Source: Nitrospirota bacterium
GTDB taxonomy: Bacteria; Nitrospirota; Thermodesulfovibrionia; Thermodesulfovibrionales; Dissulfurispiraceae
Reading direction: 5' to 3'
DNA: 64,000 nucleotides
Assembly: GCA_021791055.1 (NCBI GenBank)
Contig: JAJYXI010000051.1
Span: forward strand, 1,653-65,652
The notes beneath the pieces were generated by a model. The model saw only the letters and a program-made list of their open reading frames with translations. It was not told the origin of the DNA and did no database searches. This document shows positions 18,144 through 42,235 of this stretch, piece by piece. Both the position numbers and the translations under genes were made by a program. Position 1 is the first letter of the stretch, and every line of letters begins with the position of its first letter.

Positions 18144-19439
18144 ATGAAAAAGGTAGTTATTACAGGTATTGGTGCAGTTACACCGCTATCAGATAATTTT
18201 CCTGATTCTTGGTCTCTTGTAAAAAAAGGTGTTTCAGGAATAGACAGGATTACAAAGTTCGATGTCTTGGGCTCGCCTTGGAAAATGGCAGGAGAAGTTA
18301 AGAAGTTCAAACCTGAGTTGTATTTATCCAAAAAGGAGATTCTGCGGCTCGACCCTTTTGTGCAGTATGCAGTCGCATCGGCAATGATGGCTGCTGAAAA
18401 TGCGGGACTGGTAAAACAGAGGTCAGAAGTCAGAAGTCAGAAGTCAGCACCCCCCCAGCCCCCCCTTACCAAGGGGGGGATTAGAGGGGGGGTTATAATA
18501 GGGTCAAGCAGGGGAGGAATAACTACAATAGAAAAAGAACTGCAAAAATTATACGGTTCGCGGTTCACGGTTCACGGTTCACGGATTTCGCCCTATCTTA
18601 TGCCGTCTACCACTATCAGCATGGCTGCATCTTATGCGGCGCAGAAATTAGGCATCAAGGGTCATTGTTTAGGCATCTCCAATGCATGTGCATCCGGGAC
18701 AAATGCCATTGGAGAGGCGTACAGACTGATAAGGCATGGCTATGCAGACATAATTATAGCAGGCGGAGCTGAAGCGCCAGTGTGCAGGCTATGCGTAGAA
18801 GGATACGGCATTTCGGGTGCATTATCAAAAACAGATAATCCATCTGCAAGCAAACCTTTTGACAGGAAAAGAGATAGCTTTGTCATTGCTGAAGGAGCCT
18901 GTGTCTTGGTGCTTGAAGGATATGAATCTGCATTAAAGAGAAATGCTACAATCTATGCCGAAATAATTGGTTACAGCAACACAACAGACGCCTTTCATAT
19001 AACAAGGCCTGATATTGAAGGTGAGGTGATAGCAATACGCACCGCACTTGAAGATGCAGGGATATCACCAACAGATGTTGATTATATCAATGCACATGGA
19101 ACATCTACGCCAATTGGGGATAAGACAGAGGCAGAGGCAATAAAAGGGGTCTTCAAAAATAGCGTATCACGAATACCTGCCAAAATTCCTGTCACTTCAA
19201 TAAAATCAATGACAGGACACATGCTTGCGGCATCAGGCGCATTCGAAACAGCATGCACTGCAGTGAGTATTAAAGAAGGCATTATACCTCCGACAATTAA
19301 TGTTACAGAAAAAGACCCTGAGTGTGACATTAATATTGTGACGGAAAAAAGAAATGCTGACATCAGAATTGCCATAACTAACTCATTTGGATTTGGAGGG
19401 GTAAATGCGGTGATAGTTCTGAAAAAGATAATGGAGTGA
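18144..19439 (+). CDS. fabF: Beta-ketoacyl-ACP synthase II-like
   Basis: Active-site ACASGTNAIG, HGTSTPIGD and GHMLAASG. About 20 extra residues come from two in-frame repeat inserts. Confidence 0.9.
   Translation: MKKVVITGIGAVTPLSDNFPDSWSLVKKGVSGIDRITKFDVLGSPWKMAGEVKKFKPELYLSKKEILRLDPFVQYAVASAMMAAENAGLVKQRSEVRSQKSAPPQPPLTKGGIRGGVIIGSSRGGITTIEKELQKLYGSRFTVHGSRISPYLMPSTTISMAASYAAQKLGIKGHCLGISNACASGTNAIGEAYRLIRHGYADIIIAGGAEAPVCRLCVEGYGISGALSKTDNPSASKPFDRKRDSFVIAEGACVLVLEGYESALKRNATIYAEIIGYSNTTDAFHITRPDIEGEVIAIRTALEDAGISPTDVDYINAHGTSTPIGDKTEAEAIKGVFKNSVSRIPAKIPVTSIKSMTGHMLAASGAFETACTAVSIKEGIIPPTINVTEKDPECDINIVTEKRNADIRIAITNSFGFGGVNAVIVLKKIME
18422..18447. repeat. Tandem heptamers (GTCAGAA, 3.7 units) in frame in fabF
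   Basis: gtcagaa gtcagaa gtcagaa gtcag. Confidence 0.9.
18450..18492. repeat. Nested C-run/G-run palindromic element in frame in fabF
   Basis: C7-AG-C7-TTACCAA-G7-ATTAGA-G7, translated as PPQPPLTKGGIRGG. Confidence 0.85.
18554..18584. repeat. Tandem heptamers (CGGTTCA, about 4 units) in frame in fabF
   Basis: cggttcg cggttca cggttca cggttca cgg. This is the reverse complement of the murF array. Confidence 0.9.
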
Positions 19440-19508
19440 TGGAGTATTGAAAAGACTAAAAAGATTGAGAATTAAAAGGCCATTATTCCAACACTCCATT
19501 ACTCCATT
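19430..19508. terminator. Long hairpin formed by inverted octamer arrays between the convergent fabF and GNAT-1 genes; possible bidirectional terminator
   Basis: AATGGAGTGATGGAGTATTG (19430-19449) matches the reverse complement of CAACACTCCATTACTCCATT (19489-19508) at 18 of 20 positions, with a 39-nt loop. Both stop codons lie inside the arms. Confidence 0.5.
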
Positions 19509-19523
19509 ACTCCATTACTCCAC
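19489..19523. repeat. Octamer tandem array (ACTCCATT, about 4 units) containing the GNAT-1 stop codon
   Basis: caacactcc attactcc attactcc attactcc ac. Confidence 0.85.
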
Positions 19524-20631
19524 TTATTTTCTTCTCATAAACCCTGTACCTTTTATAAAGTCTCGCTCCGAACATTTCACAAATTCTTATAACAGAAATG
19601 TTGTCTTCAAGAATCCACGAAAACTCTATTCTCTTATACCCGCCTTTTTTAATGTTCTTATGTCCCACTTTAAACAAAAGCGCATCAACACCCCTGTTGC
19701 GATATTCGGGCTTAATGCCATAGAGCAACAATCTAAGGTCGGTGATTTTCCTTGAATAATAAAGCGCCTTTAGTATGGTTATGGGATTAAGTCTTCCCCC
19801 CATATGCCTCAGGACAAAATTAAAATCCGGGATAAGGCCGAGGAATCCGATAGGCTCCCCATCCTTTTCTGCAATAAGGGTCAAATCCGGGACTGCCAAG
19901 GGCTTCAGCCTGCCTGCGCTGTAAGCAAGCTCTTCATCACTAATCGGAATAAAGCCCCAGTTCTTCTCCCATGCAGAATTATAGACATTCTGGAAAATCT
20001 TCATATCAGCCATGAAATTCTTTTTATCAATAGTCCTGACTGTTATTCCTTTTCTCTCAGCCAATGCAGCTACTCTCAAAACCTTCTCCGGCAATTCCTC
20101 CTGCATATCGTAAATATATGCATGGAGGTCTTTTGATTTTGACATGCCGAAGGCAGTCATCAGATCATTGTAATACGGAAGATTGTAAGGCATCATGAGC
20201 ATTGGAGGACTGTCGAATCCTTCGATTAAAAAACCGCACTCCTCATTTGTGGAAAAATTCATAGGCCCGCGCATTGTCTCCATACCTTGATTTTTCAGTT
20301 CATTCTGGACTCTGCTCAACAAGGCACCTGAGACAGTGCTGTCATTGATGCACTCAAAAAAACCGAAGAATCCTGCCTTTTCTTTATGCAGCCTGATATG
20401 CTGAGGATTTATAATTGATGCTATGCGGCCGGCAATATTCCCGTCTTTCACTGCCAGAAAAAATTTTACATCCGCGTGTTTTAAAAATGGGTTTTTATCC
20501 GAAAAATGCCCCTTCATGTCCCATGTCAATTGAGGGACATAAAGATTATCGTTTTTGTAAAGATCGAGGGGGAATTTTATAAAGGCATTAATTTCTGATC
20601 TTGTTTTGGTTTCTATTATTTTAATCATCAT
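19507..20631 (-). CDS. GNAT-like N-acyltransferase, about 370-aa family, paralogue 1
   Basis: 74 of the first ~96 residues (INAFIKF...GFFECIND) are identical to 21513-22622. GIKPEYRNRGVD resembles the acyl-CoA binding loop. Confidence 0.6.
   Translation of the reverse strand: MMIKIIETKTRSEINAFIKFPLDLYKNDNLYVPQLTWDMKGHFSDKNPFLKHADVKFFLAVKDGNIAGRIASIINPQHIRLHKEKAGFFGFFECINDSTVSGALLSRVQNELKNQGMETMRGPMNFSTNEECGFLIEGFDSPPMLMMPYNLPYYNDLMTAFGMSKSKDLHAYIYDMQEELPEKVLRVAALAERKGITVRTIDKKNFMADMKIFQNVYNSAWEKNWGFIPISDEELAYSAGRLKPLAVPDLTLIAEKDGEPIGFLGLIPDFNFVLRHMGGRLNPITILKALYYSRKITDLRLLLYGIKPEYRNRGVDALLFKVGHKNIKKGGYKRIEFSWILEDNISVIRICEMFGARLYKRYRVYEKKISGVME
20376..20565. repeat. 190-nt near-identical tract, copy 1 (5' part of GNAT paralogue 1)
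   Basis: By hand alignment at a constant offset of 1994 nt, it differs from 22370-22559 at only 2 positions. Confidence 0.85.
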
Positions 20632-20718
20632 TAAAAAGTAAATAGTATGCTGAATTTAGCGATAGGAGATAAAGTATTGGAGCGACTTCGGCAGCCCAAG
20701 CGTAATATGAAAATAATA

Positions 20719-21459
20719 AATAGGGACAGCGACCATTTATTGACATAAATAGAATGGATGCTTTACTATTAGCGCATGCCGAGAATAGCCAGAGCAGTTG
20801 CAGTCGGATTCCCACATCATATCACTCAGCGGGGTAACTATCGTCAGAGAGTCTTTGAAAACGATGATGATTACCTCCAGTATTTGGAATGGTTGCAGAT
20901 GTACAGCAAAAAATATGCTTTGAAGATATGGGGCTACTGCCTCATGAGCAATCATGTGCACTTCATAGCTGTGCCTATGGAAGGCGATTCCCTTTCAAAG
21001 ACCTTTAACACCCTTCATATGAGATATTCACAGCACATCAACTCAAGACAAGAAAACAGAGGACACCTATGGCAAGGACGCTTCTTTTCCTGTGCGCTTG
21101 ATGAAAGACATCTCTATGCTGCTATGCGATATGTAGAAAATAATTCCGTAAAGGCTCGTCTTGTTAAGAAGGCTGAAAATTACCGTTGGTCAAGCGCCCG
21201 CGCTCATGCAACGGGAACGATTGATGCGGTCTTAGCAAATGACTGTTATATGGTTGAAAGAATAAAAGATTGGTCGGCATATCTCAGGGAGAAAGAGGAT
21301 ACAATATTAGTAGCGGATATTCGGCAAAGCACAAAGACGGGTCGCCCATGTGGAGACAACAGGTTTGTAATGAAGATGGAGAAGCTGCTCGGAAGGAAAC
21401 TGATTGCCTTGCCGAAAGGAAGACCTCGCAAAACAAATTAAACGGGCGCTGTCCCTATT
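20719..21459 (+). mobile_element. RAYT unit bounded by a 13-nt inverted repeat
   Basis: AATAGGGACAGCG (20719-20731) and its reverse complement CGCTGTCCCTATT (21447-21459) bracket the RAYT ORF. Confidence 0.6.
20776..21441 (+). CDS. REP-associated tyrosine transposase (RAYT, IS200/IS605 Y1 superfamily)
   Basis: HHITQRGN, HUH motif SNHVHFIA, RYVENNSV Tyr motif, YRWSS. Confidence 0.85.
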   Translation: MPRIARAVAVGFPHHITQRGNYRQRVFENDDDYLQYLEWLQMYSKKYALKIWGYCLMSNHVHFIAVPMEGDSLSKTFNTLHMRYSQHINSRQENRGHLWQGRFFSCALDERHLYAAMRYVENNSVKARLVKKAENYRWSSARAHATGTIDAVLANDCYMVERIKDWSAYLREKEDTILVADIRQSTKTGRPCGDNRFVMKMEKLLGRKLIALPKGRPRKTN

Positions 21460-21512
21460 AAAACTATGGGGTGATTACCCGCGCTGGTTAAGGCCATCGT
21501 TCTAAAAACGAT

Positions 21513-22622: not shown

Positions 22623-22785
22623 TATTAAAAAAAATATGCTTAATTTCAAGATATAAGATAACGTATTGTAGCGACTTCGGCAGCCCAAGCGTAACATGGA
22701 TGTTTAAGCGGGCTGGCGCAGCTTCGGAGGCAGGCCGGATGCCTTCCGAGAATGAAGCGGAAATACGTTATCTCCTATCATAAAG

Positions 22786-23979
22786 TTATATCAACTCCAG
22801 TGCCTTGCCAACCTTTTTGAATGCATCAAGCACCTTATCGAGATGCTCGTCTGTATGCGTGGCCATGTAGCTCGTTCTTATTAGCGCCTTTCCAGGAGGC
22901 ACTGCCGGAGAAACAGCAACATTTGCAAATACTCCCTCCTCCTGAAGCATCATCACGAATTTAAAAGCCACTTCATCCTCTCCCACGATGATGGGGATAA
23001 TGGGAGTCTCGCTGGGCCCTATTTCAAAGCCGAGTTCTTTAAAGCCTTTAAGCATTCTATGGGTATTTTCCCAGAGCCTTTCTATTCTTTCAGGCTCGCT
23101 CTCGATAATGTCCAGTGCGGAGCTTACAGCCGCTATCGATGCAGGAGGCGGGCTTGCGCTGAATATCAATGCCCTCGCAAAGTGCTTAATATAATGAATA
23201 ACATCCGCATCGCCTGCTATAAAACCGCCTATGGATGCAAGGGATTTGCTGTATGTGCCCATTATCAAATCCACCTCATTCTCTAAGCCGAAATGCTCTG
23301 CAGTGCCTCTGCCTGTCTTTCCCAAGACACCGATTCCGTGCGCATCATCAACCAGAAGCCTTGCGCCGTATTTCTTGGTTATCTTCAATACTTCGGGGAG
23401 ATTGATAACATCTCCCTCCATGCTGAATACTCCGTCAACGACAACGAGCTTACCTCTGCCGTTATTCTCATTGAGTATTCTCTCAAGGTCAGCCATGTCA
23501 TTGTGCTTGAACCGCTTGACCTCTCCATATGAGAGCCTGCAGCCGTCAACAATGCTTGCATGATCCATCTTGTCGATTATGACAATATCATCTTTTCCGA
23601 CAAGTGCGGATATTACTCCTAAATTGACCTGAAAACCTGTAGAAAACACAAGGGCAGCATCTTTCCTCATAAAACGGGCAAGCTTTTCTTCAAGTCTCAC
23701 ATGTATGTCGAGCGTCCCGTTAAGAAACCTTGAGCCTGCGCAGCCTGTACCGTATTTTTTTACAGCCTCAATTGCCGCCTCTTTGACCTTCGGATGATTG
23801 GTAAGTCCGAGATAATTGTTTGAACCAACCATTATCATCTTTCTGCCGTTTATTATTACCTCGGGATCCTGTGCGCTCTCTATTACCCTAAAAAAAGGAT
23901 AAACTCCTATCTTCTGCAGTTCCTTGGCGGTATTAAATTTAAAGCACTTTTCAAATATGTCTGTAGTTTTCATATCCAT
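22786..23979 (-). CDS. PLP-dependent alpha-oxoamine synthase (serine palmitoyltransferase / Kbl / BioF family)
   Basis: [26 protein letters not shown] (PLP Lys). The start is at 23979 or 23973; the latter gives an ATGA overlap with the SDR gene. A separate bioF is present at 63175. Confidence 0.8.
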
Positions 23980-24932
23980 TGATGTATCCTGTACCAGTCT
24001 GCTGTCCATCTTGCTCCTTCCTTTATTTTTACCTTTGGCTCAAACTTCAGCCTCTCTGTTGCCCTGGTCGTGTCACAAATCCATTGAGAATGCCGCATCT
24101 CTTTTATTTTATCAGTATTAATTATACTTGCCCCTTTTGCCTTTTCAGAGATAAATCCAAGCAGCGGCATAACAAACTTCGGTATATTCAATTTCATCGG
24201 CCTCCTTTGCAGTGCATCGGATATCGCCTCAATAATATCATCAGTGGAATAAATATTGCCATCCGACATGAAGAAAGTCTCACCTTCTGCATCCTTGCTC
24301 AGAGCAGAGAGTATTATACCATTTATTAAATCTTCAACATATAAAAAAGAGTAATAGCACTTGCCCCAATATGGGATTACACCTGATTTTACCATCTTAA
24401 AGAAGACCAGCAGATCCCTGTCTCTCGGGCCGTAAACTGCAGGAGGCCTTATAACAGTCACGGGCATATTTTTACTTTGTGCTAAAACTATTTTTTCTCC
24501 CTCCAATTTTGTTCTTCCGTAAACAGAAACAGGCATCGGCTCACAATCTTCTTTCAGAGGCTTTCCATCGCAGCTTGGCCCTGCAGCAGCAAGGCTGCTC
24601 AGATAGACAAATCTCTTAATATTAGGATTATTCGCAAGCACTGCCTGTACGATGTTCTCTGTCCCTCTAACATTTGCATTAAAGAAATCCGCTTCGGAGC
24701 ATGCCTTTGTCAGCCCTGCAAGATGAAAGATATTATCCATATCTCCGACAGCATCATGAAGAGAGCTAATGTTAGTGCAATCTCCTCTCACAATCCTGAC
24801 ATTGAGATCTTCAAGATACCTCAAATTTGATGGATTTCTTACAAGACAGGTAACATCAAAACCTTCACGAATCAGGGCACCTGCAAGATGGCTCCCTATA
24901 AAACCTGTTGCACCAGTAATCAGGGCTTTCAT
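23970..24932 (-). CDS. NAD(P)-dependent epimerase/dehydratase-family reductase (extended SDR)
   Basis: [10 protein letters not shown] Rossmann motif and YGRTK catalytic YxxxK. Confidence 0.8.
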
Positions 24933-24970
24933 AAATCTTGGTTTATTCTAAGGAATATCCAGCACTTTTT

Positions 24971-26272
24971 TCAAGGAATTCTTCTGACCTTAACTTTAAG
25001 TCCTTCAACACCCTCAACAATCACCCTCTCATCCTTATGTATGACATTATCCGAATATGCAGACCAGTATTCACCATGAACAATGACCATGCCGCCTTCA
25101 GGCGTAATATCTGTCTTTGCAACTCCCTCTAAACCGACAAGGCCTTCAACACCTGTTACAGGCTTTCTTTTATATGCCCTGTAGGCGAGCCTGAATGTGA
25201 GGACAAAAAACATGGCGGTTACAATAGCAGCAGGAATGATTACAGTAAGGGAAAGCTTTAAAAATGGCAACGGTGACTCAAAGAGCATCAATGAGCCGAG
25301 AACAATAGATATTATACCTCCAATCGTAAGCATTCCGTATGATATGACCTTTACTTCGAGTATGAAGAGGATAAGGCCGATGATAATAAGCAAAAGTCCT
25401 GCATAATTCACAGGGAGGGTCTGGAAGGAATAGAAGGCAAGGACAAGACAGATGCCTCCAACCACGCCCGGAAATATGGCGCCCGGATTTGTGAGCTCAA
25501 AAAACAGTCCGTAAAAACCGAGCATCATGAGTATATATGCCACATTGGGATCGCTTATTAAATTCAAAATCTTGTGCCTGAAGCTCATCTCATGCCTGAT
25601 AATTTTTGCATTGGCTGTCTTTAATGTTTTGTCTCCATAGGCGGTTTTTACCATCCTGCCGTCTATTTCGGAAAGGAGTATGTTTATATCCTTTGCAATT
25701 ACATCGATAATATTGTTTTTCAATGCCTCTGTCTCTGTAACAGAAACGCTCTTTCTCACAGCATCCTCCGCCCATTTGACATTCCTGCTGCGGGTCTCTG
25801 CGATGGACTTAATATAAGCAGCAGCATCGTTCGTGGCCTTTTCAGCCATCACCTTGTCCATCTTCTCACCCACTGCAACTGGATGCGCAGCGCCTATATT
25901 TGTGCCGGGCGACATTGCAGCGATATGCGCAGCCATTGTTATAAAAACCCCTGCTGACGCAGCCCTTGCACCGCTCGGTGAGACATAAACTATCACAGGA
26001 ACACTGCTTCCGATAATATCCTTCACAATACTCCTCATGGATGTATCAAGGCCACCGGGGGTATCGAGTTCGATAATCAGCGCCTCTGCATTCATTTCTG
26101 CCGCCTTTTTAATGGATTTGCCTATATACTCTGAAGCAACAGGATTGATAACACCATTGACAGTAATGACGAGCACTTCGGATTTTCTGTTTTCGACAGA
26201 ATACAGCAAGGGACTTAAAAAGAGAACAGTAGAGATAAAAATAAGTGCGAGAAAAACAAACTTCCTATTCAT
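24971..26272 (-). CDS. nfeD: NfeD-family membrane-bound ClpP-class serine protease
   Basis: Signal peptide, ClpP-like domain (IELDTPGG, SAGVFI), four TM helices and a C-terminal OB-like NfeD domain. Confidence 0.8.
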   Translation of the reverse strand: MNRKFVFLALIFISTVLFLSPLLYSVENRKSEVLVITVNGVINPVASEYIGKSIKKAAEMNAEALIIELDTPGGLDTSMRSIVKDIIGSSVPVIVYVSPSGARAASAGVFITMAAHIAAMSPGTNIGAAHPVAVGEKMDKVMAEKATNDAAAYIKSIAETRSRNVKWAEDAVRKSVSVTETEALKNNIIDVIAKDINILLSEIDGRMVKTAYGDKTLKTANAKIIRHEMSFRHKILNLISDPNVAYILMMLGFYGLFFELTNPGAIFPGVVGGICLVLAFYSFQTLPVNYAGLLLIIIGLILFILEVKVISYGMLTIGGIISIVLGSLMLFESPLPFLKLSLTVIIPAAIVTAMFFVLTFRLAYRAYKRKPVTGVEGLVGLEGVAKTDITPEGGMVIVHGEYWSAYSDNVIHKDERVIVEGVEGLKVKVRRIP

Positions 26273-28350: not shown

Positions 28351-29007
28351 ATGTTTAAACTCGCACCGGAAGGCTATCCATTTTTAATCTTCTTTTCCAT
28401 TCTCACCATTATTGCATTCTTTGCAACAGGCGGGGTATGGATAGCCCTTTTACCGTTCATTCTTACGCTCTTTATGCTGTACTTTTTCAGAGACCCTGAG
28501 AGGACAATACCTGATGGGGATAATGTCTTTGTGTCCCCTGCCGATGGTAAGGTCATACTGATAAAGAATGTTGATGAAGATGTAATCCCCCCCTACCCCC
28601 CTTTATTAAAAAGGGGCGAGGGGGGATTTATCGAAGTCAGCATCTTCATGTCCCCTTTGAATGTCCATGTAAACAGGGCCCCATGCGACGGGGTTGTTGA
28701 ATCGGTAGTACATACGCCTGGAAAATTTCTATCCGCATTTAAACATGAGGCGTCCCTTCACAATGAAAACATCGCCATGCTCCTTAATACAAAACACGGC
28801 AAGGTGCTTGTCCGTCAGGTTGCAGGATTTGTTGCAAGAAGGGCTGTATGCAGGGTTAAGCCTGGCGATGCCTTAGAGAAAGGGCAGCGTTACGGAATCA
28901 TAAAATTCAGTTCAAGACTGGATATTTATCTGCCGAAAAATACCGATATTAAAGTTAAGCTGGGAGATAAGGTAAAGGCTGGAGAGACAATAATCGGAAC
29001 AAAGTAA
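28351..29007 (+). CDS. psd: Phosphatidylserine decarboxylase (short, archaeal-type family)
   Basis: About 215 aa. N-terminal TM helices and a GQRYGIIKFSSRLDIYLP self-cleavage region. In-frame palindromic insert (IPPYPPLLKRGEGGF). Confidence 0.8.
   Translation: MFKLAPEGYPFLIFFSILTIIAFFATGGVWIALLPFILTLFMLYFFRDPERTIPDGDNVFVSPADGKVILIKNVDEDVIPPYPPLLKRGEGGFIEVSIFMSPLNVHVNRAPCDGVVESVVHTPGKFLSAFKHEASLHNENIAMLLNTKHGKVLVRQVAGFVARRAVCRVKPGDALEKGQRYGIIKFSSRLDIYLPKNTDIKVKLGDKVKAGETIIGTK
28584..28628. repeat. Nested C-run/G-run palindromic element in frame in psd
   Basis: AATCCCCCCCTACCCCCCTTTATTAAAAAGGGGCGAGGGGGGATT, translated as IPPYPPLLKRGEGGF. Confidence 0.85.
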
Positions 29008-29025
29008 TGGTATAATAGTTAAAGA

Positions 29026-29802
29026 ATGACAGCAAAACACAAAAGAGAGGAGAAAAAGCCGAAGAAAGGTGTATATCTCCTGCCAAATACCATAACCCTC
29101 TGCGGCATGTTTGCCGGCTTTTTTGCAATCCTTTCGGCAATCAACGGAAACTATCTGAACGCCGCATGGGCAATAATAATAGCGAATATCTTCGACGGCC
29201 TCGACGGCTGGATTGCAAGACTCACAAATACTTCCACAAGATTCGGAATAGAGCTTGACTCGCTTTCAGACCTCGTTGCCTTCGGAGTCGCTCCGTCTGT
29301 AATGATATATAAATGGTCCCTCGCTCCCTTTGGCAGATTAGGATGGGCTGCCGCATTTCTGTTCGTTGCATGCGGCGCATTAAGGCTTGCAAGATTCAAT
29401 ATACAGACCGGTGCCCCAGGCTCAAAGGCATTCAAGGGTATGCCCATACCTGGCGCTGCAACTATTTTAGCCTCGATGGTTATCTTTTATTACGAATTCT
29501 GGACAGGCATTCCGGGAAAAAATATCTTTTTCCCGATTATCACAATACTGCTATCTTTGTTAATGGTCAGCACCTTGCGTTATCACGGCCTTAAAGAGAT
29601 AGACTTCAGGGAGAGAAAGCCCTTCTGGGTGTTGATTGTATTCGTGCTGGTGCTTTTTGTCCTGTTCGTACACCCTCCGACTGCAATATTCATCTTTGCA
29701 ATGGCATACCTCCTTTGGGGTATAATTGAAAATACAATTCTTTTAGCAAAAAGAAGAAAATTAAAACAAATAGAACAGCAATCAATAGAGAGTAAGGAAT
29801 GA
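29026..29802 (+). CDS. pssA: CDP-diacylglycerol--serine O-phosphatidyltransferase
   Basis: CDP-alcohol phosphatidyltransferase motif DGLDGWIAR....G.ELDSLSD. Confidence 0.85.
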
Positions 29803-34177: not shown

Positions 34178-35437
34178 ATGACTATTACCGAGAAGATACT
34201 TGCGGCGCATGCTGGAAAAAAAGAGGTTGTCCCCGGCGAATTAATAAATGCAAAGGTTGACCTCATCCTTGCCAATGACATTACCGCCCCCATTGCCATA
34301 CAGGAATTCAAGAAAATCGGTGCAAAGGATGTCTTTGACAAAGATAGGGTGGCGCTGATTCCCGATCATTTTACGCCACAAAAAGACATAAAGGCTGCAG
34401 AGCAGTGCAAAACGCTCAGAGATTTTTCAAAGGAATACCACCTCGGATTATATTTTGAAGTTGGCAGGATGGGCATTGAGCACGCACTGCTGCCTGAGCA
34501 GGGTCTTGTGGTTCCGGGAGATCTGGTAATCGGCGCAGACAGCCACACATGCACTTACGGAGCCCTCGGAGCCTTTGCGACAGGCGTAGGTTCCACAGAT
34601 GTTGCCGCCGCAATGGCGACAGGCGAATGCTGGTTCAAGGTTCCAGAATCAATGAAATTCATTTACTATGGAAAGCTCAATAAATGGGTTGGAGGAAAGG
34701 ATTTGATTCTTCACACAATAGGCGACATCGGCGTTGACGGCGCATTATACAGGGCTATGGAATTCGAAGGTGAAGCAATCAGGAATCTGCCGATGTACGG
34801 AAGGCTTACCATGTGCAACATGGCGATAGAGGCTGGCGGCAAAAACGGCATTATTGTACCTGACAGCATAACAGAAGAATATGTAAAAGGCAGGGCGAAG
34901 AGACCCTATAAATTTTATACATCGGATTCAGATGGAAAATATATGGAGATCAGAGAATACGACTGCTCAAAAATACCTTTAACCGTTTCATGTCCGCATC
35001 TGCCTTCAAATACAAGACCTGCAGCCGAATTGTTCGAAATAACCATAGACCAGGTTGTTGTCGGCTCATGCACCAATGGAAGGCTCGAAGATTTAAGGGA
35101 AGCTGCACAGATCATTAAAGGCAGAAAGGTGAATCCAAATGTAAGGATGATCGTCATCCCTGCAACGCAGCAGATTTACAAACAGGCAATGAACGAAGGA
35201 CTTCTCGATATATTCATAGATGCAGAGGCCGTTGTCTCAACACCCACATGCGGGCCATGCCTCGGCGGACACATGGGAATCCTCGCAAAAGGAGAAAGGG
35301 CTCTCGCAACTACAAACAGGAATTTTGTAGGAAGGATGGGACATCCTGAAAGCGAAGTGTATCTATCAAACCCGGCAGTGGCAGCGGCATCGGCAGTGCT
35401 TGGCAGGATAGGAGTGCCGGAGGAATTTGGGTTGTAA
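34178..35437 (+). CDS. leuC: 3-isopropylmalate (or homoaconitate) dehydratase large subunit, about 420-aa type
   Basis: Aconitase-family [23 protein letters not shown] and CGPCLG cluster ligands. AGGAGG upstream of MTITEK. Confidence 0.9.
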
Positions 35438-35533
35438 AATAAACGATAACCGAGACATCTATAAAAATATCGTAGCAGCATAAAAGATAATGTTACACAT
35501 AAAAAACTAGAAACATCAAATCAGGAGGGGATA

Positions 35534-35815
35534 ATGATTAACTGGTTAAAGATTATCTTTGTTTTTTTCGTTGTAAGCATTGCACAGGCGTCTGACGATA
35601 CCTATATAAAAATTCAAGAAATGGTTAATGACTTAGGGGCACCACAATATCGGCAGCAAAATAATGGGAAAGTGCAACAATGTGCTGATGGTGGAACAAA
35701 ACAGATAACAATAAAGAAAACAAAATATGGAACTTCTTATAAGGGTATCTATAGAAAATGTAAGGAGTTTGGCACATTAAGAGATGGGCATGTAGAGATT
35801 ACAACAGGAGGGTAG
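35534..35815 (+). CDS. Small secreted hypothetical protein (93 aa)
   Basis: Signal peptide MINWLKIIFVFFVVSIAQA and GGAGGGG SD. Confidence 0.5.
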   Translation: MINWLKIIFVFFVVSIAQASDDTYIKIQEMVNDLGAPQYRQQNNGKVQQCADGGTKQITIKKTKYGTSYKGIYRKCKEFGTLRDGHVEITTGG

Positions 35816-35821
35816 ATTCAA

Positions 35822-37540
35822 ATGAAGGTAAAAAATATAATGCTTGCACTTTTTATTTTTTCTTTAATGGCATCAAATGTTTTTGCTCAAGATTATGAAA
35901 CAGTGCTTAACAACTGCAAAAATAGTCTTGAGTCATCATTTCTTAGCGTGCCAGACAGTGACATTGAGATTTGTAATAAGGCAATACAAATTAATTCTAA
36001 TGATGCAAGAGGATACTTTTTTCGCGGTACGGCTTATCTCCTAAATAAAAAATTTACGGCAGCGAAAAAAGACCTATCAAGAGCTATTGATTTGAAGCTA
36101 TCTAATGGTGAGATGCTATCTATGGCATATCATCGTAGGGGCTATGCATATGAACAAACAAAACAATATGAGAAAGCAATAGAAGATTACAGAAGGGCAA
36201 TAGAGATAGACCCTAAGAATGAGTATTCCAAAAACGCAATTGTCAAATTTGAAGAGCAGAAAATTTCTGAAAAAATAGTAAATACGAAGAAGGAAGCAAG
36301 TGTTTATGAGGAAGAACTAAAGAAAAATCCAAGAGATTATTCTGTTAATAAAAAACTGGCTGATATTTATTTAAATATTGATATGGAAAAGGCTTACTAT
36401 TATGCTAACAAGCTTATTGAAATTTCTAAAAACCAACAAGAAAAAGCTCAAGGTTATCTTTATAGAGGATGGATTAGGCATGAATATGGAGAGACAAAGG
36501 AAGCCTATGATGATTACACACAATCAATTCATTTAAATCCAAAAGAAGCTTCAGCATACTATCACAGAAGCAGGTTGTTCGACAATAAAGATATAGACAA
36601 GAAAATTGCCGATTTGCAAAAAGCCGTAGAGATAGATGCTAAGTTCCCAGATGCTCTTTGGGCTTTGGGATGGGCATATGACCACAAACAGATAATAAGC
36701 ACTGGCTATCAGAAACAACAGGCATTAAAAAGCGCAATTGACGCTTTTAGCAGGTTAATAGACATAGAGCCTGAATATGATTCCAGAATATATAGGTTTA
36801 GGGCAAATTGGCACATGTTACTTAGCACAGTAGACTGTAAAACAGCTATTGCCGACAGAAAGAAAGCAATAGAAATGACAAAGGATTCAGACCAAGATTA
36901 TGGCTACTATGCAGAGAACCTTATGCAATGCAAGGATTATCCTTCGGCTATAAGAGCATATGAAGATATATTATCTAAGAAGGATGCTTTTTTTAAGATG
37001 TATAGTAAAGCAAAATATGCGGTTGATATGGGCAAAGCATGGATGCTATGGGGTGGTATTGACCCTGAAAAAATGACCACTCATAGAATTTATGATTTAG
37101 ATAAGCGAATTTCTACAAAGGCTGTTGAGGTGCTTGACAAAGCAATAAAAATAGCTTCTCCACGATGTGATGAAGCAAAAGATGATACCGCCAAATATGT
37201 GCTGTGCGACCCAAAGAGAAAAGCAATTGCATATAAGGGCCTAATCTATTTGGTTTTAGAAGATTACAGCAAAGCGGCTGAGAATCTGCGTAAAGCAATA
37301 GACTACTTTCCTAATGCAACACTTAAATATCACCTTGCTGTAGCCCTATATAAAAAGAAAGACTATAAGGGGGCGTTAGAAAATTGCAGGGTAAGTAAAG
37401 ATAATATGCTTCCTTTTAAAGATACAGACTTCGGAAATATCGCATGTTCTGATTCGTTTATTGAAGAACTTGAGAAGATTGTAATGCTTGGGCCTGAAAC
37501 TAAAAAAAATACCAAGGCTAAAAGTAATGACAGGCGATAA
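35822..37540 (+). CDS. Secreted TPR-repeat protein (572 aa)
   Basis: Signal peptide ...SNVFAQ and many TPR-like units (AIEDYRRAIEIDPKN and similar). Confidence 0.75.
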   Translation: MKVKNIMLALFIFSLMASNVFAQDYETVLNNCKNSLESSFLSVPDSDIEICNKAIQINSNDARGYFFRGTAYLLNKKFTAAKKDLSRAIDLKLSNGEMLSMAYHRRGYAYEQTKQYEKAIEDYRRAIEIDPKNEYSKNAIVKFEEQKISEKIVNTKKEASVYEEELKKNPRDYSVNKKLADIYLNIDMEKAYYYANKLIEISKNQQEKAQGYLYRGWIRHEYGETKEAYDDYTQSIHLNPKEASAYYHRSRLFDNKDIDKKIADLQKAVEIDAKFPDALWALGWAYDHKQIISTGYQKQQALKSAIDAFSRLIDIEPEYDSRIYRFRANWHMLLSTVDCKTAIADRKKAIEMTKDSDQDYGYYAENLMQCKDYPSAIRAYEDILSKKDAFFKMYSKAKYAVDMGKAWMLWGGIDPEKMTTHRIYDLDKRISTKAVEVLDKAIKIASPRCDEAKDDTAKYVLCDPKRKAIAYKGLIYLVLEDYSKAAENLRKAIDYFPNATLKYHLAVALYKKKDYKGALENCRVSKDNMLPFKDTDFGNIACSDSFIEELEKIVMLGPETKKNTKAKSNDRR

Positions 37541-37577
37541 AATATAAATGAATTGTCCTCTAAACGCTGGAGGGATT

Positions 37578-38132
37578 ATGAAAGACTCAATCAGCGCAAG
37601 GGCGGCAATTGTTGGTGCAGCCTCAAATGTTAAGCGTTATACCGTAAAATTATCGGTAAATTCTGCTACGCAAGAAGTTATCTTCAAAGAAGGTAGTGAC
37701 GAATATAATAATAGTAGCGAAGGTCCAATATTATATATTCGCTATAGGAGCAAAAATAATTTGCTATACATAGGAGAATGTGAAAAGAAATATCGTGTTG
37801 AAAGTGGTTTTTACATCGAAAAGAAAGCAAAGAAGCGAAAAATGCCTGCTGCGCCATACTATTTTCTTAATGATGAAGCTTTTAAAATCCATTATGTTGA
37901 TGTCTATCAATTAGACCCATCAATTTATGGGAAATCAAAAAGCAATAGGGAAAAACTTGAGCAGTATGTAAGAATAGGTATAGAAATATATACAGGACAA
38001 AAACCCAAGTTCAATAATGACCCAAACAGCAAAAATTTCCCACGCCATATAATTGATACAGGGAATCAGATTATTTGTGATATGATGCGAAGGGGAATCA
38101 TCAACACCAAGTGTATCACTGAGGAAAGATAG
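37578..38132 (+). CDS. Hypothetical protein with a possible GIY-YIG nuclease core
   Basis: ILYIRYRSKNNLLYIGECEKKYR fits GIY-x10-YIG-x7-R, and the downstream REKLEQYV...FNN fits the conserved Glu/Asn. Start at MKDSIS with GGAGGG upstream. The family call is tentative. Confidence 0.4.
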   Translation: MKDSISARAAIVGAASNVKRYTVKLSVNSATQEVIFKEGSDEYNNSSEGPILYIRYRSKNNLLYIGECEKKYRVESGFYIEKKAKKRKMPAAPYYFLNDEAFKIHYVDVYQLDPSIYGKSKSNREKLEQYVRIGIEIYTGQKPKFNNDPNSKNFPRHIIDTGNQIICDMMRRGIINTKCITEER

Positions 38133-38404
38133 TGTGCAGGCAAAGTAGCTACACTAATTTTTTGGCAATGATTTCGACAGAATTCCATAAATATTTGATG
38201 GAAAATGAAAATTTTGCAGATAAGATACCTGCTAATGCCATGATTATATTCCAGGTCGAAGGAGAAGACGACTTTAATAAATGGCATGAAGAGACGTCAT
38301 TGAGAAATCGAGAAGCAGGCCAGCCGATAGTTTATGTATATGTAAAGAAATGGAGAAAACACTCCTCTATCGAAGAAGTCAGTCTGTCAGAGGCTGCAGC
38401 ATAA
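38132..38404 (+). CDS. Small hypothetical protein (DUF5647-like by recollection); the start may be the internal MISTEF at 38168
   Basis: FHKYLMENENFADKIPANAMIIFQ...GQPIVYVYVKK pattern. The family assignment is weak. Confidence 0.4.
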   Translation: MCRQSSYTNFLAMISTEFHKYLMENENFADKIPANAMIIFQVEGEDDFNKWHEETSLRNREAGQPIVYVYVKKWRKHSSIEEVSLSEAAA

Positions 38405-38417
38405 CAGCAACCACGCT

Positions 38418-38876
38418 ATGAGCATAGAAGACAAAATAAAAAAACTTGGCATCACCCTTTCAGATGCACCTAAGCCACTGGGCTCGTATGTGCCGTGCGT
38501 TCAGACAGGCAATCTCCTGTTTCTGAGCGGAATGCTTCCATTGAAAGACGGCAAACTAATTAAGACGGGAAAGCTCGGAGAATCCGTATCAATCGAAGAA
38601 GCTCAGGAATGCGCAAGGCAGTGCGTTATAAATGCGCTTTCGGTTTTGAAGTCTCATCTTGGAAATCTCGATAAAATCAAAGGGTGCGTAAAGCTAAACG
38701 GTTATGTGGCGTCAACGCAAGACTTCACAGAGCAGCCTAAAGTGCTGAATGCGGCGTCCGATCTTTTGTTTGAAATCTTCGGCGAAGCCGGCAGGCACGC
38801 CCGCGCAGCAGTCGGGGTATATGTTCTCCCGCTGAATTCTCCGGTAGAAATTGATTTTATTTTTGAAACGGCTTAA
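38418..38876 (+). CDS. ridA: RidA/YjgF-family reactive-intermediate deaminase
   Basis: 152 aa. YVPCVQTGNLLFLSGMLP and the C-terminal ...ARAAVGV..LP.N..VEI pattern. Confidence 0.85.
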   Translation: MSIEDKIKKLGITLSDAPKPLGSYVPCVQTGNLLFLSGMLPLKDGKLIKTGKLGESVSIEEAQECARQCVINALSVLKSHLGNLDKIKGCVKLNGYVASTQDFTEQPKVLNAASDLLFEIFGEAGRHARAAVGVYVLPLNSPVEIDFIFETA

Positions 38877-38895
38877 AAATACTTTCACCGCCCTG

Positions 38896-40164: not shown

Positions 40165-40274
40165 TTCCCCTCCCTGTTCCTCCGGATATTACTAAAGTAA
40201 TTATACACCATTTCTCACCATCCCCTTATATATAGAGATAGATTTTATTTTCGAGATAACGCCTTAGTTACCCT

Positions 40275-40502
40275 TTATATCAAGCCAAGCTCCTTTAACT
40301 GTTTCACCATCTCATCAAACTCGGGACGAAACCGGTAACCAAGCCGGACGATTGCTTCGTAAGGCTCCATCGAGGCATTTGGATCTGCCAGTGACAGATA
40401 CTCGCTGAATATGGCGTTAAAGGCATTTCTCTTGGGAACCACAAAATAATTGTCCTCAAAGGCAGCGGCAATCTTAAAGGCAATATCTTCTATCTCAGCC
40501 AT
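40275..40502 (-). CDS. Hypothetical protein (75 aa)
   Basis: Intact ORF downstream of the radical SAM gene, with GGAGGAGGAAAGC SD-like sequence upstream. Confidence 0.45.
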   Translation of the reverse strand: MAEIEDIAFKIAAAFEDNYFVVPKRNAFNAIFSEYLSLADPNASMEPYEAIVRLGYRFRPEFDEMVKQLKELGLI

Positions 40503-40531
40503 GCTTTCCTCCTCCTTTGCTTAGTCCTTTG

Positions 40532-42235
40532 TTATACATTCATAGCCTCCATATACTCATCCCACAGCCTTTCTTTTGATATGCCTGTGTCTATAAAATC
40601 CCATGGCAGGACTTCATCATAATCTTTTTTCCTGAATATATAAAAGCCTATATCCACTCCTGCCAGCGAGCACGCAACTTTATAGTCATCTGCCTTAACC
40701 ATCGCCTTTAAAACATTAAATACTCTTCTGTCGCCCACAGAGAAAAGCCCCTGCATGTGAGCATATTTTGGAACATCATGAAAGACCTTTACACCCTTTT
40801 CATCCCTCAATGCCTTCTTAATAAACTTCAGCTTCTCCTTTACAGAATCAAGAGGCTCCATAGGATGCCATTGAAACGGAGTAAAGGGCTTTGGAACGAA
40901 TGTACTAACGCTCAATATTATATTTCCCTTGCTCGAAATTCTCCTCACTTTTTTTACAATCTCAACAATCCCTGAGATGTCTTCATCCGTCTCTGTTGGA
41001 AGCCCTATTATAAAATAAAGCCTCAAATTCTCTATGCCTGCATTTAATATAAGTTCCGATGTGTTAAGTATGTCATTTTCTGTAATCTTTTTGTTGACAA
41101 CCCTTCTCATCCTCTCTGTGCCTGCCTCGGGTGCAATAGAAACACTCTTATGTCCTTTTAAAAGCTCCACAAGTTCGGCGCTCTTTTCACTTGCACGCAA
41201 AGAGGTTATGGAAAAATCAACACCGTCAATGCATAAGACATCCTTGATATATGCATAATCTGTGAGGGAAGGCCCTATTAATCCTATTCTTAATCCCCCC
41301 TTCCCCCCTTTAGTAAAGGGTGGTGTTGGGGGGATTTGAAGCTTCTTGGCCTTTTCAATTTCTGCCTTAATGGTTTCGAGCTCTTTTTTTCTCACCGGGC
41401 TGTAAATATGCCCAACAAGGCAGAACCTGCATTTCCAAGGGCATCCCCTCATAGCCTCGATAAGATACATGTCCGAAAACTCCGCCTCCGGAGTAGTAAT
41501 CGCTGTTGTAACAGGAGAAAGTGATAAATCCTTAATGTATCTCCTTTTTATCTTTTCCGGCACTCCATGTTTTGCAATCCTTTCAACTATCCTGTCGTCA
41601 GGAGCGTATTTAATACCATAGAACTCAGGAATATAAATACCTTCGATGTTAATTGCTTCCTTTTTCATATCATTTACCCCCATTCGTCCCCCCTTACCAA
41701 GGGGGGATTTGAGGGGGGTAGAATAAACATCCAGAAACTCATTCAGCGATTCCTCTGCCTCGCCGACAAAGATTATGTCAAAGACTGGAGCTACCGGCTC
41801 AGGGTTGAAAAAACAGCAAACGCCGCCTGCAATTAGAAGAGGATGATATTCGTTCCTTTCGGACGAACTAAACGGGATTTTTGAAATATCGAGTATCTTT
41901 AAAATATTCGGGTAGTCGTTTTCAAATGAAATGGAAAAAGCTACTATATCAAATCGGTTTAACGGCCTCTTTGATTCAAGGGAAAATACAGGTGTATCGG
42001 TTCTTCTGTATTCTTCGATGTCTTTCTCATCAGGCAGAAATGCCCTTTCGCATACAACATCATCCCTTTTATTCAGAAGGCCGTAAATGCCCTGAAATCC
42101 CAAGTTTGACATACCCACATGATAGGTATTCGGATACACAAGGCATATATTTATCTTTCCGCCCGGGTCTTTAAAGATGGTGCCTTTTTCCTTTGAAAGA
42201 AGGGTGTCCGCTTTTTCGATGAGCTTACGGTTCAC
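40532..42235 (-). CDS. B12-binding-domain radical SAM protein
   Basis: CPWKCRFC (CxxxCxxC) cluster motif and an N-terminal B12-like domain. Two in-frame C/G palindrome inserts. ATGA-type overlap with ftsZ. Confidence 0.85.
   Translation of the reverse strand: MNRKLIEKADTLLSKEKGTIFKDPGGKINICLVYPNTYHVGMSNLGFQGIYGLLNKRDDVVCERAFLPDEKDIEEYRRTDTPVFSLESKRPLNRFDIVAFSISFENDYPNILKILDISKIPFSSSERNEYHPLLIAGGVCCFFNPEPVAPVFDIIFVGEAEESLNEFLDVYSTPLKSPLGKGGRMGVNDMKKEAINIEGIYIPEFYGIKYAPDDRIVERIAKHGVPEKIKRRYIKDLSLSPVTTAITTPEAEFSDMYLIEAMRGCPWKCRFCLVGHIYSPVRKKELETIKAEIEKAKKLQIPPTPPFTKGGKGGLRIGLIGPSLTDYAYIKDVLCIDGVDFSITSLRASEKSAELVELLKGHKSVSIAPEAGTERMRRVVNKKITENDILNTSELILNAGIENLRLYFIIGLPTETDEDISGIVEIVKKVRRISSKGNIILSVSTFVPKPFTPFQWHPMEPLDSVKEKLKFIKKALRDEKGVKVFHDVPKYAHMQGLFSVGDRRVFNVLKAMVKADDYKVACSLAGVDIGFYIFRKKDYDEVLPWDFIDTGISKERLWDEYMEAMNV
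41292..41336. repeat. Nested C-run/G-run palindromic element in frame in the radical SAM gene (copy A)
   Basis: AATCCCCCCTTCCCCCCTTTAGTAAAGGGTGGTGTTGGGGGGATT, translated on the minus strand as IPPTPPFTKGGKGG. Confidence 0.85.
41676..41719. repeat. Nested C-run/G-run palindromic element in frame in the radical SAM gene (copy B)
   Basis: ACCCCCATTCGTCCCCCCTTACCAAGGGGGGATTTGAGGGGGGT. The core CCCCCCTTACCAAGGGGGG is identical to the fabF copy. Confidence 0.85.

What the first reader, a model, noticed from the sequence alone, without database searches (positions are those of the whole stretch)
18450..41719. A roughly 45-nt nested C-run/G-run palindrome inserted in frame in fabF, psd and twice in a radical SAM gene, coding Pro-rich then Gly-rich peptide on either strand
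There are four copies: 18450-18492, 28584-28628, 41292-41336 and 41676-41719.

They share the architecture (AAT)C6-7 n2-6 C6-7 TTAnnAA G6-7 n4-6 G6-7(ATT), which gives an inner and an outer stem. The core CCCCCCTTACCAAGGGGGG is identical in fabF and radical SAM copy B.

CCC codes for Pro and GGG for Gly, and the element is palindromic. It therefore reads as PPxPP(L/F)xKGGxxGG whichever strand is coding: PPQPPLTKGGIRGG and IPPYPPLLKRGEGG on the plus strand, and IPPTPPFTKGGKGG and SPLGKGGRMG on the minus strand.

This strand-symmetric coding is what would allow a hairpin-forming miniature element to survive inside ORFs.
Basis: seen in the sequence. Interest (0 to 1): 0.65.

Follow-up and report, generated by a model that had tools for sequence, protein, structure and literature searches.

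The report
Tiny hairpin repeats translated inside genes
Four copies of a roughly 43-base nested hairpin repeat sit in frame in surface loops of three housekeeping genes of an uncultured Nitrospirota bacterium, and the same tiny repeat family occurs in at least 12 bacterial phyla with no known enzyme that moves it.

Summary
Four nested C-run/G-run palindromes lie at the stated coordinates, in frame in fabF, psd and, twice, a YgiQ-like radical SAM gene. Shuffled sequence gives no matches. A profile built only from copies in other genomes finds exactly these four.

Close orthologues lack each insert, and five independent assemblies of the same species carry identical copies. The two radical SAM inserts are predicted to be disordered loops.

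The family is not lineage-specific. 59 nested copies were recovered from at least 12 phyla, including cultured cyanobacteria, in two subtypes that are both present in this window. About 60% lie in long open frames and read as PPxPP(L/F)xKGGxGG-like peptides. Different subtypes recur at the same loops in orthologues.

All three codon phases are used (13/11/9), and the element is barely more stop-free than random DNA.

No target-site duplication, GTAG tag, adjacent transposase or Rfam match was found, and the nearby Y1 transposase is unrelated. The best reading is a non-autonomous, selfish hairpin repeat, like Rickettsia palindromic elements in behaviour but much smaller and spread across phyla, that persists only in permissive loops. 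What mobilises it is unknown.

The parts
18450..18492 (+). Copy A, type II nested hairpin (C7 AG C7 TTACCAA G7 ATTAGA G7). It is in frame in fabF and translated as PPQPPLTKGGIRGG.
   Evidence: -35.1 kcal/mol; E = 5e-10. It is absent from the 91%-identical FabF orthologue P0245/L246, where 26 unrelated nt lie between conserved flanks. It aligns as a roughly 15-residue insertion against B. subtilis FabF, PDB 4ls6.
28584..28628 (+). Copy B, type I nested hairpin (AAT C7 TA C6 TTTATTAAAAA GGGG CGA G6 ATT). It is in frame in psd and translated as IPPYPPLLKRGEGG.
   Evidence: -28.2 kcal/mol; E = 7e-10. It is absent from orthologues of 82-85% identity, which have 21 nt coding QHLKSDA at that point. 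Partly deleted versions occur in L127 and L128. It is identical in L002-L005.
41292..41336 (-). Copy C, type I nested hairpin with a decayed inner G arm. It is in frame in the radical SAM gene on the minus strand and translated as IPPTPPFTKGGKGG.
   Evidence: -27.1 kcal/mol; E = 3e-8. A more perfect copy sits at the same site in L129. A different subtype sits at the same site in L131. The site is empty in L130 and most orthologues. AF2 gives pLDDT below 50 at residues 301-312.
41676..41719 (-). Copy D, type II nested hairpin (A C5 ATTCGT C6 TTACCAA G6 ATTTGA G6 T). It is in frame in the radical SAM gene on the minus strand and translated as TPLKSPLGKGGRMG.
   Evidence: -29.6 kcal/mol; E = 4e-10. 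It is absent in the 83%-identical orthologue L129 and in L130, and present in L131. AF2 gives pLDDT below 50 at residues 176-182.
18144..19439 (+). Host gene fabF (beta-ketoacyl-ACP synthase II, 431 aa).
   Evidence: One search gives E = 1.5e-100 to PDB 4ls6.
28351..29007 (+). Host gene psd (phosphatidylserine decarboxylase family, 218 aa; orthologues without the insert are typically 209 aa).
   Evidence: (PF02666).
40532..42235 (-). Host gene for a YgiQ-like radical SAM protein (567 aa; orthologues without inserts are about 540 aa).
   Evidence: (PF19864 and PF04055).

Best explanation
The four sequences are members of a widespread family of very small (36-45 nt) nested-hairpin repeats, and the most likely reading is that they are non-autonomous selfish DNA.

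Each element has two C5-7 runs, a short T...A-closed loop, then two G5-7 runs, so an inner stem is clamped by an outer stem. The spacers and loop are free to vary. Two subtypes coexist in this genome:
- Type I: AAAT-C6-n2-3-C6-TTTnnnAAA-G6-n2-3-G6-ATTT (copies B and C).
- Type II: A-C6-n5-6-C6-TTnnnAA-G6-n5-6-G6-T (copies A and D).

Shown:
- The copies were acquired at sites that are empty in close orthologues.
- They are fixed and identical within the species.
- They lie in variable surface loops, shown to be disordered for the two radical SAM copies, and are translated as Pro-rich then Gly-rich linkers.
- Related copies occur in at least 12 phyla, in and between genes.

Inferred:
- The elements spread, or once spread, by a copy mechanism that recognises hairpin structure in single-stranded DNA. 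This could be a trans-acting enzyme such as an HUH/Y1-type transposase, or a replication template switch. The agent was not identified.
- Selection then removes every insertion except those that keep the frame, lack stops and fall in permissive loops. That filter would explain why the same one or two loops per protein are hit repeatedly.
- The C/G homopolymer arms make most frames on both strands stop-free and encode flexible Pro/Gly peptides, which lowers the cost of gene-borne copies.
For: **Repeat family**
- The four copies have the same architecture. The pattern gives 0 expected matches in shuffles.
- A profile built from foreign copies finds exactly these four.

**Derived insertions**
- FabF: a 91%-identical orthologue lacks copy A between conserved flanks.
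- Psd: most orthologues lack the insert, and P0002's nearest rows by path in the tree, other than its own 99%-identical cluster representative, are insert-free.
- Radical SAM: site D is empty at 83% identity, and site C is empty in the syntenic relative L130. L130 has no element at all in 21.6 kb.

**Repeated events**
- The insert state in the Psd loop changes at least 4 times, by point estimate 20 times, on the tree.
- Radical SAM site C carries type I in the window and in L129 but a type II-like copy in L131.
- Tandem or composite copies occur in L259 and L260.
- Across 120 orthologues of each protein the motif appears only at these loops.

**Tolerated loops**
- AF2 model of mean pLDDT 88, with the two inserts as coils of pLDDT below 50.
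- Copy A is an insertion relative to a solved FabF.

**Breadth**
- 59 nested copies in at least 12 phyla, with locus G+C from 0.30 to 0.69.
- A 42-nt copy in Scytonema HK-05 differs by 1 nt from one in a Phycisphaeraceae MAG.
- A type II copy lies inside a CHAT-domain gene on the Nostoc punctiforme PCC 73102 plasmid pNPUN01.

**Other**
- 61-65% of copies lie in long open frames, against 80-85% of random positions.
- Metagenome contigs carry look-alike elements with many different flanks.
Against: - No mobilising enzyme was found. No gene family recurs next to the elements in 120 loci, and there is no RAYT beside them. The window's own Y1 transposase has unrelated inverted repeats.
- No target-site duplication is visible. 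At three of the four sites the element appears to replace 12-26 nt of ancestral sequence rather than being cleanly added. Later deletion in a variable loop can explain this, but a replacement or conversion mechanism would explain it too.
- No polymorphism for any of the four copies was seen within the species, so there is no sign of current activity here.
- The tree cannot separate ancient presence followed by many precise losses from repeated gain.
Confidence: 0.68

Rival explanations
1. REP/REPIN-type elements mobilised by a RAYT, for example the Y1 transposase at 20776-21441.
For: A PF01797 Y1 transposase lies 2.3 kb from copy A. REPs are short GC-rich hairpins. Intragenic REPs are documented (PMC3733652).
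Against: The transposase is flanked by AATAGGGACAGCG/CGCTGTCCCTATT, which is unrelated to the element. There is no GTAG or CGTC tag: TAG follows the outer G run on 6 of 72 sides, about the 4.5 expected given the near-invariant T. No Y1 gene lies beside the elements in 120 loci from other genomes. About 60% of copies are in genes, unlike REPs. The transposase is missing in strains L001 and L003, which were not seen to differ in the element copies they cover.
Confidence: 0.1
2. The element is not mobile. The palindromes arise or are exchanged locally, by replication slippage or template switching within hypervariable loops, or by recombination or gene conversion of loop cassettes between strains.
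For: At three sites the element replaces ancestral nucleotides instead of adding to them, and no target duplication is seen. Partial forms fit slippage between the C runs or loss of the inner hairpin (L127, L128). The FabF loop is also full of heptamer arrays.
Against: Unrelated genes in one genome share a 19-nt core plus spacer (A and D). Copies in different phyla share whole 42-nt sequences including the 'free' spacer TTTCAT. A profile from foreign genomes recognises the window copies at E about 1e-9. De novo origin would not reproduce these specific details.
Confidence: 0.12
3. A host-beneficial module: the mRNA hairpin and PPxPP peptide act as programmed translation pauses, or the DNA hairpin is a binding or processing site, and selection keeps it at those loops.
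For: Very stable hairpins of -27 to -35 kcal/mol lie inside essential genes. Diprolyl motifs are known EF-P-dependent pause sites (general knowledge). The elements recur at domain or secondary-structure boundaries. All four copies are fixed in the species.
Against: Most orthologues, including the cultured Dissulfurispira thermophila for Psd and the radical SAM protein and a Dissulfurispira sp. for FabF, do without them. Copies decay freely: the inner arm of copy C, and L127, L128 and P0132. 35-40% of copies are intergenic. The hosts are functionally unrelated proteins.
Confidence: 0.08
4. An assembly or sequencing artefact, such as poly-G/poly-C read errors or chimeric contigs.
For: Homopolymer G runs are a known artefact of two-colour Illumina chemistry. 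Most of the data come from MAGs.
Against: Copies are identical in five independent assemblies and in a unitig of depth about 5500. They keep the reading frame of conserved genes. They also occur in genomes of cultured cyanobacteria, including a finished plasmid.
Confidence: 0.01

Closest known systems
Rickettsia palindromic elements (RPE; Ogata et al. 2000, as summarised in PMC3733652 and PMC10969869)
   Same: A dispersed palindromic repeat found both between genes and in frame inside functional housekeeping genes. It is translated as an extra peptide segment, and no associated transposase is known.
   Different: RPEs are about 100-150 bp and confined to Rickettsia, and each family is defined by sequence. 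These elements are 36-45 nt and defined by a C-run/G-run skeleton with free loop and spacers. They occur in at least 12 phyla and show no sequence relationship to RPEs.
REP / REPIN elements with RAYT transposases, including intragenic GTAG/CGTC REPs (PMC3116915, PMC3733652)
   Same: Similar size range (20-40 nt), GC-rich imperfect palindromes and high copy number. Some REPs lie inside ORFs. Mobilisation is presumed to act on single-stranded hairpins.
   Different: There is no GTAG or CGTC tag and no flanking RAYT. Most copies are in genes rather than outside them. The whole element is symmetric out to its ends, where a REP has an asymmetric tail. The same skeleton is shared across phyla, whereas REP families are usually species- or genus-specific.
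Small dispersed repeats SDR4-6 of Nostocaceae (Elhai et al. 2008, Genome Res 18:1484; cited in PMC5861425 and PMC3116915; the paper itself was not held)
   Same: Very small, hairpin-capable repeats that appear mobile, have no known transposase and are found in Nostoc punctiforme. That genome also carries a type II copy of the present family.
   Different: As cited, SDRs are 21-27 nt and reported only in Nostocaceae (PMC5861425). Their sequences could not be compared because the paper is not in the library. Identity with, say, the inner hairpin of this element is therefore neither shown nor excluded.
[quoted passage not shown]
   Same: Non-autonomous, with inverted-repeat arms. Copies can lie in or next to genes and fold into RNA hairpins.
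   Different: MITEs are 70-300 bp, derive from a recognisable insertion sequence and make target-site duplications. None of these three features is met here.

Membership tests
Rickettsia palindromic elements (RPE) | Palindromic repeat inserted in frame in protein-coding genes that stay intact. | tested here: met
   All four copies are in frame in intact fabF, psd and radical SAM ORFs. Orthologues lack the inserts.
Rickettsia palindromic elements (RPE) | Length about 100-150 bp and sequence membership of RPE-1 to RPE-10 in Rickettsia. | tested here: not met
   The elements are 43-45 nt and sit in a Nitrospirota MAG. Sequences were not compared directly; the size alone excludes membership.
REP/REPIN-RAYT | Conserved unpaired GTAG (or CGTC) tetranucleotide at one end of the hairpin. 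| tested here: not met
   Type I flanks are AAT/ATT on 46 of 73 sides. For type II, TAG follows the G run on 6 of 72 sides, about the 4.5 expected given the near-invariant T.
REP/REPIN-RAYT | REP copies flank a RAYT gene (a REPtron). | tested here: not met
   The window's Y1 transposase (PF01797) is flanked by unrelated 13-nt inverted repeats. No Y1 homologue was found in 120 element-bearing loci.
REP/REPIN-RAYT | Predominantly extragenic location. | tested here: not met
   All 4 window copies are in genes. In the cross-phylum sample, 61-65% lie in open frames of at least 150-200 aa.
MITE | Target-site duplication flanking terminal inverted repeats. | tested here: not met
   Filled and empty sites for all four copies show no direct repeat. 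At three sites 12-26 nt are replaced.
MITE | Derivation from a full-length insertion sequence with matching ends. | tested here: inconclusive
   No recurrent neighbouring gene was found in 120 loci.
Small dispersed repeats (SDR4-6, Elhai 2008) | Sequence identity with the published 21-27-nt SDR consensus sequences. | not testable with these tools
   The paper is not held, and no held paper contains these DNA or peptide strings. A type II copy is present in Nostoc punctiforme PCC 73102.
Any Rfam RNA family | Covariance-model match at or above the gathering score. | tested here: not met
   The whole window gives no match at gathering threshold. Around copies C and D there are only chance-level hits, E = 0.56 and 0.85.

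The most novel reading that the evidence does not exclude
The C6/G6 nested hairpin marks a pan-bacterial superfamily of mobile DNA that is defined by structure rather than sequence and is only about 40 nt long. It would be propagated not by a dedicated element-encoded transposase but by a conserved host process, such as hairpin-primed template switching or repair at replication forks, or by a still unrecognised trans-acting enzyme. It would be able to home repeatedly to earlier copies and to the same permissive protein loops. This would make it a general, overlooked source of Pro/Gly-rich loop insertions in bacterial proteins.
Probability: 0.3. Interest if true: 0.85.

Novelty: new variant of a known kind. 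Interest (0 to 1): 0.62.

Why it matters
In-frame palindromic passengers in essential genes have been treated mainly as a curiosity of Rickettsia and of a few REP families. This finding matters for four reasons.

- **Breadth.** A much smaller element with one recognisable skeleton does the same thing in Nitrospirota, Cyanobacteriota, Planctomycetota, Methylomirabilota, Pseudomonadota and other phyla. Nearly identical 42-nt copies occur in different phyla. This points to an unrecognised mobilisation route or to horizontal spread.
- **A testable mechanism.** It makes the question of how about 40 nt of DNA can be mobile directly testable, because cultured carriers exist: Nostoc punctiforme PCC 73102, Scytonema HK-05 and Baaleninema PCC 7105.
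- **Annotation and alignment.** The elements create lineage-specific indels, spurious short ORFs and Pro/Gly 'linkers'. They place -30 kcal/mol hairpins and diprolyl motifs inside mRNAs of housekeeping genes, which may affect translation.
- **Protein engineering.** The repeatedly colonised loops map permissive insertion sites in FabF, Psd and YgiQ-like radical SAM proteins.

Tried and rejected

**Collection scans**
- The metagenome-contig scan for the A/D subtype gave only 10 loci, none from this species.
- The viral-contig scan gave mostly one-strand, chance-like hits. In the 80 rows shown, about nine matched on both strands (a proxy; no regex or context check was run), so viral carriage is only suggested.

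**Reads**
- Only Logan contigs are served for the holder runs, not raw reads.
- The three metatranscriptomes from the same study gave no coverage, so retention of the element in mRNA is untested.

**Literature**
- No held paper contains the core DNA strings or the peptides.
- Searches on palindromic in-frame repeats returned only RPE, REP and MITE work.
- Elhai 2008 could not be opened.

**Searches that found nothing**
- No recurrent adjacent gene in 120 loci.
- No GTAG tag.
- No Rfam family.
- No type I hit in PLSDB plasmids.

**Ideas rejected**
- A frame-specific coding design: all three phases are used.
- An assembly artefact: independent assemblies and cultured strains carry the element.

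Full report
**1. Observation**

The four stretches are in the sequence exactly as described.
- Copy A, 18450-18492: C7-AG-C7-TTACCAA-G7-ATTAGA-G7.
- Copy B, 28584-28628: AAT-C7-TA-C6-TTTATTAAAAA-GGGG-CGA-G6-ATT.
- Copy C, 41292-41336: AAT-C6-TT-C6-TTTAGTAAA-GGGTGG-TGTT-G6-ATT.
- Copy D, 41676-41719: A-C5-ATTCGT-C6-TTACCAA-G6-ATTTGA-G6-T.

In a 64-kb window of 42% G+C, clustered C6/G6 runs occur only at these four places. A pattern for the architecture has 0.00 expected matches in 100 dinucleotide-preserving shuffles. As RNA the elements fold into nested hairpins of -27 to -35 kcal/mol.

All four lie inside long ORFs and keep the frame:
- FabF, 18144-19439 (+), PPQPPLTKGGIRGG.
- Psd, 28351-29007 (+), IPPYPPLLKRGEGG.
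- A YgiQ-like radical SAM protein, 40532-42235 (-), IPPTPPFTKGGKGG and TPLKSPLGKGGRMG.

The copies fall into two subtypes.
- B and C are type I: AAT/ATT flanks, 2-4-nt spacers and a TTTnnnAAA-type loop.
- A and D are type II: 5-6-nt spacers and a TTnnnAA loop. They share the 19-nt core and an ATT(A/T)GA spacer.

**2. The copies are real and fixed**

The Psd protein with the insert is encoded identically in three GenBank MAGs, one ENA assembly and one Logan assembly. These contigs are 98.5-100% identical to the window and carry copies A-D without a single difference wherever they overlap. In a mine-tailings run the organism is very abundant, and a unitig of depth about 5500 spans copy B perfectly. 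No deletion allele was seen. Only assembled contigs, not raw reads, were available. Three metatranscriptomes gave no coverage.

**3. Organism**

Best hits of all three proteins are Nitrospirota/Thermodesulfovibrionales MAGs, with Dissulfurispira as the nearest named genus.

**4. Orthologues lacking the inserts**

*Psd.* Eighty-one of 121 relatives have an invariant 16-residue loop (..RED QHLKSD AIEV..). Forty have a longer loop, nearly always with a PPLLKGG-like trace. At the DNA level, relatives of 82-85% identity have 21 nt where the window has the 48-nt element-bearing stretch. L127 lacks the inner hairpin and L128 lacks one C run.

*Radical SAM.* Site D is empty in the 83%-identical orthologue L129. 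Site C is filled there with a more perfect copy, AAATCCCCCCTACACCCCCCTTTACTAAAGGGGGGGAGGGGGGATT. [quoted passage not shown] *FabF.* The 91%-identical orthologue (L246) has 26 unrelated nucleotides between flanks that are otherwise conserved. Other orthologues carry type I or type II copies in the same loop, directly after a heptamer-encoded EVRSQKS.

There is no target-site duplication. At three sites some ancestral nucleotides are missing. Other FabF orthologues keep the ancestral ..ELL.SAG.. beside their insert, so later deletion in a variable loop is a sufficient explanation, though not the only one.

**5. Where in the proteins**

Against solved FabF structures, copy A is an insertion of about 15 residues in the N-terminal half. 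An AlphaFold2 model of the radical SAM protein has mean pLDDT 88 and pTM 0.89. It places both inserts as low-confidence coils (residues 176-182 and 301-312) between well-predicted secondary-structure elements.

Across about 120 orthologues of each protein, element-like peptide motifs occur only at these same loops: one in Psd, two in the radical SAM protein and one in FabF. On a Psd tree built without the loop columns, the insert state changes at least 4 times on well-supported branches and 20 times by the point estimate. Composite or tandem copies occur in L259 and L260. So a few permissive loops are colonised, or vacated, repeatedly.

**6. The family is not lineage-specific**

About half of the stretches are true nested palindromes of the same skeleton. 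There are 59 copies from at least 12 phyla, at locus G+C of 0.30-0.69:
- 17 copies in Cyanobacteriota and 15 in Nitrospirota.
- 5 in Pseudomonadota.
- 3 each in Planctomycetota, Methylomirabilota and Nitrospinota.
- 2 each in Myxococcota, Calditrichota and Thermodesulfobacteriota.
- 1 each in Ignavibacteriota, Bacillota and Poribacteria.

Cultured cyanobacteria are included: Scytonema HK-05, Baaleninema PCC 7105 and Oscillatoriales USR001. A type II copy lies inside a CHAT-domain gene on plasmid pNPUN01 of Nostoc punctiforme PCC 73102.

Even the 'free' parts can be shared across phyla. The Scytonema copy CCCCCCTTTCATCCCCCCTTACCAAGGGGGGAAAGAGGGGGG differs by one base from a copy in a Phycisphaeraceae MAG. 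A profile made only from these foreign copies finds exactly the four window copies at E = 4e-10 to 4e-8, with the next hit at E = 7.7. Metagenome contigs also hold many look-alike elements with unrelated flanks.

**7. Coding behaviour**

In the cross-phylum sample, 61-65% of copies lie in open frames of at least 150-200 aa, against 80-85% of random positions in the same loci. That is a modest depletion, very unlike classical REPs. Gene-borne copies read as PPxPP(L/F)xKGGxGG-like peptides on whichever strand is coding.

All three codon phases are used (13/11/9). The element is open in 4.1 of 6 frames, against 3.7 for random 40-mers. The stronger determinant of survival is position in a permissive loop.

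**8. What moves it**

Nothing was found.
- The Y1/IS200-type transposase at 20776-21441 (PF01797) is bracketed by AATAGGGACAGCG inverted repeats unrelated to the element. It is absent from two strains of the same species.
- No homologue of it, and no other recurrent gene family, lies near the elements in 120 loci.
- There is no GTAG or CGTC tag.
- There is no Rfam match.
- No held paper contains the characteristic DNA or peptide strings.

**9. Interpretation**

The best-supported reading (confidence about 0.68) is a non-autonomous, selfish nested-hairpin repeat family. It is acquired by insertion and retained only where it keeps the frame and falls in a tolerant surface loop.

Shown: the repeat family, derived presence, fixation within the species, loop location, recurrence at the same loops, and breadth across phyla. 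Inferred: the mobility mechanism, which would be recognition of the hairpin in single-stranded DNA by an unknown trans factor, or template switching.

Rivals:
- RAYT-driven REPs (0.10). Several defining features were tested and not met.
- Local slippage or cassette conversion without transposition (0.12). This does not explain the specific details shared across genes and phyla.
- A selected pause or regulatory module (0.08). Most orthologues do without it, and copies decay.
- An artefact (0.01).

**10. Comparison with known systems, and novelty**

In behaviour the elements are closest to Rickettsia palindromic elements and intragenic REPs (PMC3733652). They are not members of either family: the size, the tag, the RAYT association and the location criteria all fail.

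The small dispersed repeats of Nostocaceae (Elhai 2008) are a possible relative that could not be checked. As cited, they are 21-27 nt and restricted to Nostocaceae (PMC5861425).

I rate this a new variant of a known kind. The kind is in-frame palindromic passengers. The new features are the tiny, skeleton-defined architecture, the pan-phylum spread and the recurrent occupation of the same loops.

Earlier notes of this scan report the same G6/C6 family in other genomes. They agree with this reading but are not independent evidence.

**11. Limits**

- No raw reads or RNA coverage were available.

Noticed in passing
window 18422-18447: A tandem heptamer array, (GTCAGAA) x3.7, lies directly upstream of copy A inside fabF and encodes EVRSQKS. 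The same array is conserved in many FabF orthologues. In several of them a C6/G6 element of either subtype sits immediately after it. In a metagenome the summed unitig depth over this array is about 25-50 times the single-copy level.
   Followed up: partly
window 20719-21459: A Y1/IS200-like transposase (PF01797) is bracketed by 13-nt inverted repeats, AATAGGGACAGCG. It lies between two paralogous GNAT-like genes that are 78-79% identical at the DNA level. It is present in strain contig L002 but absent in L001 and L003; L003 has a Gp49/HTH_3 pair nearby instead.
   Followed up: partly
window 24733-25175, 29025-29227, 35437-38427: Strain contig L001, 98.5-99.9% identical elsewhere, lacks these three segments. 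One is a 3-kb block of four ORFs. This indicates indel polymorphism within the species.
   Followed up: no
L126:3222-3242 (empty Psd site): The 21 nt that occupy the insertion site in insert-free psd genes, CAGCATCTGAAAAGTGATGCA, contain a small palindrome of their own (GCATC n8 GATGC). A pre-existing hairpin might serve as a target. This was not seen at the FabF or radical SAM empty sites.
   Followed up: no
L116:67-111 and 291-335: Two copies in one Planctomycetota contig have identical arms, spacers and flanks, but the 3-nt loop centre is inverted (TTGGCAA versus TTGCCAA). This is a flip/flop-like difference, as expected if the hairpin is copied through a fold-back intermediate.
   Followed up: no
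L249, L253-L255, L257, L039, L026 (type II copies): In several groundwater Nitrospirota and metagenome contigs the type II hairpin carries a conserved asymmetric tail, TG(TG)AGGCAA, on one side and ACA on the other. This suggests that in some genomes it is part of a slightly larger unit.
   Followed up: no
L248:301-344 (Nostoc punctiforme PCC 73102 plasmid pNPUN01, 129367-129410): A type II copy, CCCCCCTTCGTCCCCCCTTACTAAGGGGGGAAAAGAGGGGGG, lies in frame in an annotated CHAT-domain protein (WP_012412992.1). Partial matches in other cyanobacterial plasmids fall in a type I PKS and a WD-repeat protein.
   Followed up: partly
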